Source: a virus
Lineage: Duplodnaviria; Heunggongvirae; Uroviricota; Caudoviricetes
Strand: one strand, 5' to 3'
Virus record (IMG/VR): IMGVR_UViG_3300014204_000003
Coordinates: 1 to 64,000 of that record
Length of the DNA stretch: 64,000 nucleotides
Shown piece after piece: positions 16,526 to 16,609 of the stretch. The notes beneath the pieces were generated by a model, which made no database searches, had not been told where the DNA came from, and worked only from the letters and a program-made list of their open reading frames with translations. The position numbers and the translations under genes are program-made. The stretch's first letter is position 1. Every line of letters begins with the position of its first letter.

Positions 16526-16609
16526 GTCGACCAGCTATTTGTCGTCGCGTCTTCCAGTTTCGCCATTCCCCCATAAGGTAGATGCGGGGGAAGGAGGAAT
16601 CGAACCTCC
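16526..16609 (-). ncRNA. permuted tRNA-like element Z/W (second copy of the architecture)
   Basis: T-arm GGAGG/TTCGATT/CCTCC, acceptor 3' TTCCCCC, a 13-nt loop, a perfectly complementary GGGGGAA, a D-arm-like GCG/AAACTGGAAGA/CGC, and a 4-6-bp hairpin. The linker ends in TTAT as in element X. Confidence 0.35.

What the first reader, a model, noticed from the sequence alone, without database searches (positions are those of the whole stretch)
16526..16609. Second copy of the permuted tRNA-like architecture, and a third copy at 17658-17717
The copy at 16526-16609 has T-arm GGAGG-TTCGATT-CCTCC, TTCCCCC, the loop GCATCTACCTTAT, GGGGGAA, a D-arm-like GCG/AAACTGGAAGA/CGC, and a hairpin. The third copy at 17658-17717 has T-arm GTTGG-TTCGAAT-CCAAC, CCCGGGC, the linker GCTTATGC, GTCCGGG and a textbook D-arm GCTCAGTTGGTTAGAGC. 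The repeated architecture with different primary sequences argues for a family of functional RNAs rather than a single pseudogene. An extra unpartnered T-arm-like hairpin sits at about 16433-16449.
Basis: seen in the sequence. Interest (0 to 1): 0.6.

Follow-up and report, generated by a model that had tools for sequence, protein, structure and literature searches.

The report
Phage Y-RNA array beside divergent Ro60
The two flagged elements are real members of a tandem set of seven small structured RNAs that imitate tRNA and sit directly in front of a phage gene for a Ro60-like RNA-binding protein, so this is a new and unusually rich variant of the known Ro60/Y-RNA partnership, not a new kind of system.

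Summary
The two copies belong to complete units, 16516-16665 and 17630-17762. Each unit is closed by a stem made from its 5' and 3' ends. There are seven such units, not three, packed at 16049-17905 immediately upstream of ORF 14510-16027. The predicted fold of that ORF matches Ro60/TROVE structures over its full length, although Pfam does not recognise it.

All units share one module: stem 1, YAC-UG, stem 2, UACAUG ... CG-ACUU, stem 1'. The flagged copies carry a T-arm, a 7-bp acceptor-like hairpin and a D-arm, which is the YrlA (bacterial Y RNA) architecture. The third copy hits Rfam YrlA below threshold (40.5 bits, E 5e-7).

A covariance model found 129 full-length relatives. All lie upstream of, and on the same strand as, Ro60 homologues in 48 of 56 uncultured-phage contigs. 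Covariation is strong.

Best reading: Ro60-partner Y-like tRNA mimics, co-transcribed with Ro60. Expression and binding are untested, and the canonical GNCGAA Ro60 motif is absent. Other units fuse the same stem to differently permuted tRNA bodies, one of them the window's annotated tRNA-Phe. Verdict: a new variant of a known kind.

The parts
16516..16665 (-). Stem 1 is 16665-16658 with 16523-16516. UAC loop 16657-16655. Stem 2 is 16654-16646 with 16536-16528. UACAU 16645-16641. Two small hairpins 16640-16630 and 16625-16612. T-arm 16609-16593. 8-bp acceptor-like hairpin 16592-16566. D-like arm 16563-16547. ACUU 16527-16524.
   Evidence: MFE equals centroid, z -3.32. R1 gives 75.6 bits, E 3.8e-17, and U4 was not in the training set. 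Three orthologues show 13 of 43 pairs compensatory.
17630..17762 (-). Stem 1 is 17761-17755 with 17637-17631. T-arm 17717-17701. Acceptor-like hairpin 17700-17679. U8-A9-like UA. D-arm 17676-17660. ACUU 17641-17638.
   Evidence: Rfam RF02553 YrlA gives 40.5 bits (gathering score 69), E 4.7e-07, over the full model. Eight-sequence alignment shows 24 of 37 pairs compensatory. z -2.79.
17777..17905 (-). Unit U1 (class A). The same closing stems and motifs enclose an unpermuted, complete tRNA-Phe(GAA) at 17804-17881, followed by ACCA.
   Evidence: ARAGORN and Rfam tRNA 67 bits. R1 full-length 45.9 bits. Thirty orthologous units aligned.
16751..16872 (-). Unit U3 (class C). Degenerate T-arm GCGGG-UCGUA-CCCGC, then acceptor-like hairpin CCCCUCC-ACCA...GGGGGGG (G3.U70, A73, CCA), then two small hairpins.
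   Evidence: R1 36.5 bits. Motif conserved in L001-L004, L009 and L030. z -2.94.
16411..16508 (-). Unit U5 (degenerate class F).
   Evidence: Descriptor hit. R1 19.1 bits, E 0.007. Orthologues L001:3199-3338, L003:3745-3881 and L004:3647-3782 keep an anticodon-like arm, a T-arm and an acceptor hairpin.
16262..16402 (-). T-arm, 7-bp acceptor-like hairpin, D-arm and an anticodon-like arm (5-bp stem, 7-nt loop). It is a whole tRNA body opened in the variable region.
   Evidence: R1 42.9 bits. z -4.45. Sixteen-sequence alignment shows 21 of 24 pairs compensatory.
16049..16140 (-). Unit U7 (class G). Short Y-like RNA with the closing module and two plain hairpins, no tRNA features, ending 21 nt before the Ro60 start codon.
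   Evidence: R1 29.8 bits. z -4.52. Orthologues in L001-L004.
14510..16027 (-). 505-aa Ro60-like protein (helical-repeat ring plus VWA domain), the presumed protein partner.
   Evidence: AF2 model pLDDT 81.5. Foldseek matches full-length Ro60 structures 9kop/9l5y, 9nen, 1yvp and 2nvo, E 4e-11 to 2e-7, TM 0.55-0.62. Pfam finds only a VWA domain.
17062..17616 (-). HNH-domain protein gene lying inside the array, between U2 and U3.
   Evidence: Pfam HNH 2e-09 and PHROG HNH endonuclease. Full-length homologues sit upstream of the Ro60 homologue in about 27 of 65 loci.
14170..14520 (-). 116-aa ORF overlapping the Ro60 stop codon. Function unknown. It is the most conserved neighbour.
   Evidence: tblastn finds it directly downstream of the Ro60 homologue in 49 of 65 loci. 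No Pfam or PHROG family.

Best explanation
The two flagged elements are genes for Y-RNA-like small RNAs of the YrlA type. They are two of seven tandem paralogues at 16049-17905 on the minus strand, lying directly upstream of, and probably co-transcribed with, a divergent phage Ro60 gene.

Each RNA has two modules. The first is shared by all seven. The 5' and 3' ends pair (stem 1). An asymmetric internal loop follows (5' YAC, 3' ACUU), then a second stem that starts with U.G and G-C, then an invariant UACAUG. I infer that this is the Ro60 docking site. The second module is a tRNA imitation. In the flagged copies it is a T-arm stacked on a 7-8-bp acceptor-like hairpin, followed by U8-A9-like nucleotides and a D-arm, so the docking stem stands where the anticodon stem would be.

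Inferred mechanism, by analogy with bacterial Ro60/Y RNA. The array is cut out of a polycistronic precursor. Ro60 holds the stem. [quoted passage not shown] This would tether or gate Ro60 during infection.

What is shown: the sequence anatomy, the covariation, the synteny and the Ro60 fold of the neighbour. What is inferred: transcription, processing, Ro60 binding and the downstream effector.
For: 1. Anatomy. The motif ACUG-N4-12-WACAUG occurs 7 times on the minus strand within 16114-17896, against 1.1 expected in the whole window. A fixed-frame descriptor (stem 1, YACUG ... ACUU, stem 1') finds exactly these seven. All seven fold with the ends paired, z -2.8 to -4.5.

2. Similarity to YrlA. 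Rfam RF02553 aligns 17627-17762 over its whole length with the T-arm, acceptor hairpin and D-arm in register, E 4.7e-07.

3. Covariation.
- A5 (32 sequences, MAFFT): 94.6% paired against 63.5% shuffled. Score 0.77 against 0.18 shuffled and 0.08-0.16 for slid partners. All 7 acceptor-hairpin pairs covary.
- A4 (148 distinct sequences): stem 1 covaries at 8 of 8 pairs.
- Orthologues of the 16516-16665 unit show 13 compensatory pairs.

4. Conserved unpaired nucleotides in 129 units: A11 123/129, C12 116, U13 115; UACAUG 99-128/129; CGACUU 89-126/129.

5. Partner. The neighbouring ORF has a Ro60 fold.

6. Synteny and specificity. 129 of 129 full-length hits are upstream on the same strand, none inside or downstream, in 48 of 56 loci, and again in MAG contigs. 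686 kb of unrelated viral DNA gave only one full-length hit, and that hit is on a contig that carries the Ro60 homologue.

7. Spacing. Gaps of 7-14 nt between several units, 21 nt to the Ro60 ATG, and no excess of sigma-70 promoters or terminators fit a processed polycistron, as reported for M. smegmatis YrlA/YrlB (PMC4201824).

8. Precedent. YrlA genes next to Ro60 are reported in 254 bacteria and 22 phages, sometimes several per locus (PMC4201824). Two Yrl RNAs lie upstream of Thermus phage phiLo Ro60 and bind it (PMC12135203).
Against: - There is no expression, end-mapping or binding data.
- The motif that marks the Ro60 site of known YrlA RNAs (GNCGAAN0-1G on the 5' strand; PMC4201824) is absent from the closing stems of all seven units.
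- Rfam YrlA is below its gathering score for U2 and silent for U4. It reaches threshold in none of 15 related loci.
- The Ro60 assignment rests on a predicted structure. Sequence searches against Pfam and PDB see only the VWA domain.
- The loci were collected through the Ro60 homologue, and the aligned RNAs were picked with a model that encodes the structure. Both the association and the pairing statistics are therefore partly circular.
- A 116-aa ORF (49 of 65 loci) and an HNH protein (about 27 of 65) are also syntenic and could be the binding partner instead.
Confidence: 0.8

Rival explanations
1. The closing stem and its motifs form a Ro60-independent processing or stability scaffold. For example, it could be a double-strand RNase site or the binding site of the co-located 116-aa or HNH protein, serving to excise and protect tRNA-like RNAs from a polycistronic transcript. 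On this view the proximity to Ro60 reflects only a shared 'RNA region' of the genome.
For: The canonical Ro60 motif is absent. One unit encloses a complete tRNA-Phe with ACCA that would need excision. The 116-aa ORF is nearly as syntenic as Ro60. The whole region is rich in tRNA genes.
Against: The ten other tRNAs of the window (10298-13301) and the many ordinary tRNAs in related loci lack the motifs. Units are always on the Ro60 strand and upstream of it. The stem / internal loop / stem layout with conserved loop bases is the hallmark of Y RNAs (PMC4201824, PMC12135203). Short units without any tRNA part (U7) keep the module, so it is not merely a tRNA-excision device.
Confidence: 0.1
2. They are circularly permuted tRNA genes, as in the red alga Cyanidioschyzon merolae. 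Their transcripts would be circularised and re-opened at the acceptor loop to give working tRNAs.
For: The order 3' half then 5' half, with a loop joining the acceptor strands, is the same. Some relatives encode NCCA right after the acceptor 3' strand (19 of 71). Class E units carry an anticodon-like arm.
Against: U2 and U4 have no anticodon arm at all. The closing stem occupies its place. ARAGORN and Rfam tRNA do not call them. No bulge-helix-bulge motif is visible in the closing stems. From general knowledge, bacteria lack the splicing endonuclease this pathway needs.
Confidence: 0.04
3. They are chance or decayed junctions of tandem tRNA genes: the T-arm of one tRNA followed by the D-arm of the next. 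This is the false positive that the YrlA discoverers warned about.
For: The array lies in a tRNA-rich region. The R1 model does give partial hits (model positions 26-103) at true tRNA-tRNA junctions, for example 12088-12166 and 13198-13273.
Against: In the flagged units the two 'acceptor' strands pair with each other, and all 7 pairs covary. No anticodon arms flank them. Terminal stems close each unit and covary at 8 of 8 pairs. Orthologues are conserved across contigs whose Ro60 proteins are only 40-80% identical.
Confidence: 0.03
4. They are pieces of a two-piece (permuted) tmRNA.
For: There are weak partial Rfam hits: tmRNA_permuted 18.7 bits at 16798-16841 and beta_tmRNA 16.4 bits at 16565-16609. 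U3 has G3.U70/A73/CCA like tmRNA. A related contig has a genuine permuted tmRNA (L034, 101 bits).
Against: The scores are far below gathering (47 and 84). They cover only the T-arm plus acceptor. There is no tag reading frame and no room for pseudoknots in 120-150 nt. ARAGORN finds no tmRNA in the window.
Confidence: 0.02

Closest known systems
YrlA (Y RNA-like A; Rfam RF02553) of Salmonella Typhimurium, Mycobacterium smegmatis and mycobacteriophages
   Same: It is encoded just upstream of Ro60 on the same strand. The ends pair in a stem with an internal loop. The head is T-arm, acceptor-like hairpin, D-arm in that order, with tRNA tertiary-contact nucleotides (U8, A14, GG in the D-loop, UUCRA T-loop). 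Several copies per locus and phage examples are known (PMC4201824). U2 aligns to the full Rfam model.
   Different: Scores are below the family threshold: 40.5 against 69 bits for U2, no hit for U4, and none in 15 related loci. The GNCGAAN0-1G motif is replaced by YACUG ... UACAUG / CGACUU. The partner protein is so divergent that Pfam TROVE misses it. There are up to seven paralogues per locus.
Deinococcus radiodurans Yrn1
   Same: It is a Y RNA whose tRNA-like part has the opposite topology (D-like, anticodon-like arm, T-arm, with the Ro60 stem at the acceptor end), as described in PMC4201824. Unit U1 and its 29 orthologues have this layout.
   Different: Here the embedded body is a near-perfect tRNA (67 bits on Rfam tRNA). 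In the window it has a 7-bp acceptor stem and ACCA. The Yrn1 D-arm is doubtful and its anticodon-like loop has 6 nt.
Yrl1/Yrl2 of Thermus phage phiLo with phi-Ro60 (PDB 9KOP, 9L5Y)
   Same: It is a phage Ro60 with Y-like RNAs upstream, and binding has been shown in vitro (PMC12135203). phi-Ro60 is the best structural match of the window's ORF.
   Different: The phiLo RNAs were recognised by a CGAA motif and are described as stem-bulge-stem, without a tRNA-like head. There are two copies rather than seven.
Circularly permuted tRNA genes (Cyanidioschyzon merolae) and two-piece tmRNA
   Same: The 3' half of the acceptor/T region precedes the 5' half, and a loop joins the acceptor strands.
   Different: The flagged units have no anticodon arm, no tag reading frame and no evidence of circularisation. 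Both are resemblances of layout only.
Ro60-like gp130 of coliphage Bas63 beside a tRNA gene block (PMC11482910)
   Same: It is a phage Ro60-like gene embedded in a tRNA region. The authors speculated that some annotated tRNAs there might be Y RNAs, and U1 here is such a case.
   Different: No RNA analysis was reported there. The Bas63 locus was not compared here.

Membership tests
Y RNA (Ro60-associated ncRNA, general definition) | Encoded next to, or co-expressed with, a Ro60/TROVE protein | tested here: met
   The units end 21 nt upstream of ORF 14510-16027, whose model matches Ro60 structures. 129 of 129 relatives lie upstream of homologues.
Y RNA (Ro60-associated ncRNA, general definition) | About 80-150 nt, with 5' and 3' ends paired in a long stem interrupted by a conserved internal loop or bulge | tested here: met
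   Units are 92-150 nt. Stem 1 and stem 2 covary. YAC/ACUU loop bases are conserved in about 90% or more of 129 units.
Y RNA (Ro60-associated ncRNA, general definition) | Physically bound by Ro60 | not testable with these tools
   Needs RIP or EMSA.
YrlA (Rfam RF02553) | Covariance-model score at or above the curated gathering score (69 bits) | tested here: not met
   U2 scores 40.5 bits and U4 has no hit. There is no YrlA hit at gathering in the window or in 15 related loci.
YrlA (Rfam RF02553) | tRNA-like module ordered T-arm, acceptor-like stem-loop, D-arm inside the closing stem | tested here: met
   Alignment to the Rfam consensus. Covariation in all three helices.
YrlA (Rfam RF02553) | GNCGAAN0-1G motif on the 5' strand of the Ro60-binding stem (PMC4201824) | tested here: not met
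   Absent from the 5' strand of all seven units. The only GNCGAA lies in the D-like arm of U4.
YrlA (Rfam RF02553) | Recognised by tRNA enzymes (TruB, DusA; RNase P and CCA addition when the acceptor stem is 7 bp) | not testable with these tools
   There are only indirect hints: 7-bp acceptor-like stems, and NCCA after the 3' strand in 19 of 71 relatives.
tRNA (RF00005) | Cloverleaf with an anticodon arm, and acceptor stem formed by the RNA's own ends | tested here: not met
   U2 and U4 are not called by ARAGORN or Rfam tRNA, and their alignments show no anticodon arm. U1 does meet this feature.
Permuted tRNA gene | Both tRNA halves, including the anticodon arm, recoverable after joining the ends | tested here: not met
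   U2 and U4 have no anticodon stem-loop. The ends form a 7-8-bp stem plus a conserved internal loop instead.
Two-piece tmRNA | tRNA-like domain plus tag reading frame and pseudoknots | tested here: not met
   Only partial hits of 16-19 bits against gathering scores of 47 and 84. ARAGORN finds no tmRNA in the window.

The most novel reading that the evidence does not exclude
One Ro60-docking stem has been fused, in a single phage lineage, to tRNA bodies opened at four or more different places.

- Acceptor end: U1 and its orthologues. Their anticodon differs in almost every relative, and many have lost the acceptor stem.
- Anticodon-stem position: U2 and U4.
- Variable region: U6, with an intact anticodon-like arm.
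- D-arm side: class F.

In addition there is a unit whose acceptor minihelix carries the alanine/tmRNA identity set (G3.U70, A73, CCA).

If these RNAs are nicked by RNase P, given CCA and even charged, or if their variable anticodon loops serve as decoys or sensors for host tRNA-cleaving defence nucleases, the array would be a Ro60-tethered toolkit of tRNA surrogates. That would be a phage counter-defence or translation-surveillance device, and not just another Y RNA.
Probability: 0.2. Interest if true: 0.8.

Novelty: new variant of a known kind. Interest (0 to 1): 0.6.

Why it matters
Ro60/Y-RNA particles are conserved from bacteria to humans, yet what the tRNA-like head of bacterial Y RNAs is for remains open.

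This locus, and about 50 related uncultured-phage contigs, offer a natural series in which one docking stem carries many versions of the tRNA body. The covariation is strong enough to define each version. That makes several questions directly testable:
- which part Ro60 reads;
- which tRNA enzymes act on the head;
- whether phages use such particles against host RNA-targeting defences.

The work also has practical consequences:
- a large Ro60 family is invisible to Pfam TROVE;
- its RNAs are invisible to Rfam YrlA at threshold;
- at least one 'tRNA gene' called by standard tools (tRNA-Phe 17804-17881) is embedded in a Y-type scaffold and may be mis-annotated.

Tried and rejected
- Sequence searches for the neighbouring protein were uninformative. 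phmmer and a 31-sequence profile against PDB sequences, Pfam at E up to 10, and PHROGs gave only VWA or weak 'RNA-binding protein' hits. The Ro60 call needed structure prediction plus Foldseek.
- tblastn against deposited phage genomes found only one distant hit, at 27.5% identity, in an unannotated 595-kb uncultured phage.
- The sigma-70 promoter and terminator scan of 15900-18100 showed no excess over shuffles.
- A whole-collection scan for the 5' motif (14 specified bases) returned mostly chance matches. I used it only as a negative control for the covariance model.
- The 3' motif alone (SGACTTWNS) is too short to be enriched window-wide.
- The R1 full-length hit at 10232-10366 (21 bits) is just tRNA-Glu plus downstream sequence.
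- Partial R1 hits (model 26-103) are tRNA-tRNA junctions.
- The tandem-tRNA-junction, permuted-tRNA and tmRNA readings were considered and rejected, as set out under the rival explanations.

Full report
**1. The observation**

Everything is on the minus strand, which also carries the window's tRNA genes and the neighbouring ORF.

The quoted strings are present exactly where stated.
- Second copy: T-arm GGAGG-UUCGAUU-CCUCC at 16609-16593. The self-pairing UUCCCCC...GGGGGAA hairpin at 16592-16566. A GCG/AAACUGGAAGA/CGC D-like arm at 16563-16547.
- Third copy: GUUGG-UUCGAAU-CCAAC at 17717-17701, CCCGGGC/GCUUAUGC/GUCCGGG at 17700-17679, and GCUCAGUUGGUUAGAGC at 17676-17660.
- The 'unpartnered' T-arm-like hairpin is at 16448-16434.

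Each core lies inside a longer unit whose 5' and 3' ends pair.

**2. Seven units, one shared module**

The motif ACUG-N4-12-WACAUG occurs seven times on the minus strand between 16114 and 17896, against 1.1 expected in the whole window.

A fixed-frame descriptor (stem 1, then YACUG ... ACUU, then the complement of stem 1) finds exactly seven units on that strand of the 64 kb. They are U1 17777-17905, U2 17630-17762, U3 16751-16872, U4 16516-16665, U5 16411-16508, U6 16262-16402 and U7 16049-16140.

All seven fold with their ends paired, and more stably than dinucleotide shuffles (z -2.8 to -4.5).

Gaps between several units are only 7-14 nt. U7 ends 21 nt before the start codon of ORF 14510-16027. 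No excess of sigma-70 promoters or intrinsic terminators is seen. This fits one processed transcript, which is an inference.

**3. The neighbour is a divergent Ro60**

Pfam, PHROGs and PDB sequence searches see only a C-terminal VWA domain.

The protein has more than 970 metagenomic homologues, all labelled 'hypothetical'. An AlphaFold model built on 31 of them (pLDDT 81.5; helical repeats at 8-305, then a VWA domain) matches Ro60 structures over about 510 columns with probability 1.0. The matches are:
- Thermus phage phiLo Ro60 (9kop, 9l5y);
- human Ro60 (9nen);
- Xenopus Ro60 (1yvp);
- D. radiodurans Rsr (2nvo).

E-values run from 4e-11 to 2e-7 and TM-scores from 0.55 to 0.62.

The window is phage DNA: it encodes a portal protein, a DnaB helicase and a DUF5131 protein. 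The homologues lie on IMG/VR contigs of roughly 60-180 kb and on a few MAG contigs, mostly Acidobacteriota.

**4. What the flagged copies are**

A permissive Rfam scan aligns 17627-17762 to the whole YrlA model (RF02553). The T-arm, acceptor-like hairpin and D-arm are in register and the closing stem is paired. The score is 40.5 bits, E 4.7e-07, below the 69-bit gathering score.

YrlA is the bacterial and phage Y RNA in which a Ro60-binding stem replaces the anticodon stem of a tRNA-like body (PMC4201824).

U4 has the same order, with two extra small hairpins before the T-arm and a 3-bp D-like arm. It gets no Rfam YrlA hit. With a covariance model (R1) built from eight U2-type sequences that do not include it, U4 scores 75.6 bits, E 3.8e-17.

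R1 recovers all seven units over its full length. Its other window hits are partial (model 26-103) and fall on true tRNA-tRNA junctions. That is the false positive Chen et al. warned about.

The flagged units are not such junctions:
- their two acceptor strands pair with each other;
- no anticodon arm flanks them;
- a covarying stem closes each unit.

**5. Relatives and covariation**

In 56 viral loci holding a homologue of the Ro60-like protein, R1 gives 186 hits, all on the gene's strand.

Among the best 150 hits, 129 are full-length. All 129 lie upstream of the gene, none inside or downstream of it, in 48 loci with 1-7 units per locus.

As a control, 80 unrelated viral loci (686 kb), each with a chance match to the 5' motif, gave a single full-length hit. 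That hit is on a contig that carries the homologue.

Covariation results:
- **U4 orthologues** in three phages: 13 of 43 pairs compensatory.
- **Eight U2-type sequences**: 24 of 37 pairs compensatory.
- **MAFFT alignment of the 32 best hits**: 24 of 28 pairs compensatory. 94.6% of cells are paired against 63.5% in shuffles. The covariation score is 0.77 against 0.18 shuffled and 0.08-0.16 when partners are slid. All seven acceptor-hairpin pairs covary.
- **148 model-aligned units**: stem 1 covaries at 8 of 8 pairs.

Caveats: the sequences were chosen with a structure-aware model, and the loci were chosen through the protein.

Unpaired bases are strikingly conserved: YAC-UG, UACAUG and CG-ACUU. 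The motif that marks the Ro60 site of known YrlA RNAs, GNCGAAN0-1G, is absent. No related locus reaches the Rfam YrlA threshold. So these RNAs work like YrlA but fall outside the curated family. That matches the divergence of their protein.

**6. Mechanism**

Shown: the anatomy, the covariation, the synteny and the Ro60 fold.

Inferred from the Ro60/Y-RNA literature (PMC4201824, PMC12135203):
- the shared stem / internal loop / stem module docks Ro60;
- the tRNA-like head is presented to tRNA-recognising proteins or to an exoribonuclease such as host PNPase.

Seven-base-pair acceptor-like stems, and an NCCA encoded right after the acceptor 3' strand in 19 of 71 relatives (about 1 expected by chance), recall M. 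smegmatis YrlA. That RNA is cut by RNase P in this loop and receives CCA. U2's loop is only 8 nt and can zip up to a 9-bp stem, so U2 itself is probably not cut.

**7. The wider family** (beyond the finding)

The units fall into orthologous classes.

- **U1** encloses a complete tRNA-Phe(GAA) followed by ACCA. Thirty orthologous units share a nearly invariant D-arm but have a different anticodon in almost every contig. Most replace the acceptor stem by a GNRA-capped hairpin.
- **U6** carries a T-arm, acceptor hairpin, D-arm and an anticodon-like arm. It is a whole tRNA opened in the variable region (21 of 24 pairs compensatory).
- **U3** has a GGGGGGG/CCCCUCC acceptor with G3.U70, then A73 and CCA.
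- **U5** is a decayed member of a class that elsewhere keeps an anticodon-like arm, a T-arm and an acceptor hairpin.
- **U7** has no tRNA features, like the second, shorter Y RNA YrlB reported beside YrlA.

**8. Verdict**

This is a new, unusually diverse variant of the known Ro60/Y-RNA system, from an uncultured phage lineage. It has a distinct docking motif and a Ro60 that profile databases miss. Function is inferred, not demonstrated.

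Noticed in passing
window 17777-17905 (-), tRNA-Phe at 17804-17881: The window's only tRNA-Phe gene is embedded between the Y-type 5' and 3' motifs. Orthologous units in 29 other contigs share its D-arm but carry at least 14 different anticodons, including UUA and UCA, and most lack an acceptor stem. It may therefore be a tRNA mimic rather than a decoding tRNA.
   Followed up: partly
window 16751-16872 (-); also L001:2643-2764, L003:3132-3256, L009:3256-3373, L030:3740-3857: The acceptor-like hairpin GGGGGGG/CCCCUCC followed by AC(C/A)A gives G3.U70 plus A73 (plus CCA). 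This is the alanine/tmRNA identity set, and it is conserved across contigs.
   Followed up: partly
window 16262-16402 (-): This unit holds all four tRNA arms in the order T, acceptor, D, anticodon-like (5-bp stem, 7-nt loop with U33 and a purine at 37). It is a circular permutation opened in the variable region. Sixteen relatives show 21 of 24 compensatory pairs.
   Followed up: yes
window 16145-16228 (-): A long branched hairpin between U6 and U7 lacks the Y motifs. It is conserved in L001:3575-3662 and L002:3709-3796, with 5 compensatory pairs among 3 sequences. It may be another small RNA or a processing element.
   Followed up: partly
window 17062-17616 (-): The HNH-domain protein gene inside the array is not sporadic. 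Full-length homologues (49-75% identity) sit just upstream of the Ro60 homologue in about 27 of 65 loci.
   Followed up: partly
window 14170-14520 (-): A 116-aa ORF overlaps the Ro60 stop codon. It has no known family and is found directly after the Ro60 homologue in 49 of 65 loci, so it is a likely partner protein.
   Followed up: partly
window 13499-13855 (-): A small RF-1-domain protein (the ArfB / peptidyl-tRNA-hydrolase type of domain) lies two genes downstream of Ro60. It is conserved only in the three closest contigs.
   Followed up: no
window 22628-23905 (-): An adenylosuccinate-synthetase family protein (Pfam E 3e-59). From general knowledge, phage copies of this enzyme are often PurZ, which is used for 2-aminoadenine genomes. 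I did not examine this.
   Followed up: no
L034:69-358; L011:~2905, L012:~3052, L013:~2968, L019:~3128, L022:~3574: A related contig has a genuine permuted tmRNA (Rfam 101 bits; ARAGORN tag AEDNALPMAA). Several others have a T-arm followed by CCUCCACCA and then GAGCCGG.UAGCAAAACGG, which looks like the same kind of element.
   Followed up: no
L002:1843-1917, L012:2708-2781, L014:2411-2481 and 7452-7537, L015:349-423, L019:9002-9077: The related contigs carry tRNAs with stop-codon-reading anticodons (UUA, UCA, CUA). Some of these lie inside Y-type units.
   Followed up: no
window 16674-16712 (+): GGGGAGC...GCUCCCC followed by UUUUUU reads as an intrinsic terminator on the plus strand, in the 85-nt spacer between U3 and U4. 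No obvious plus-strand gene precedes it. The scan tool missed it because the loop is long.
   Followed up: no
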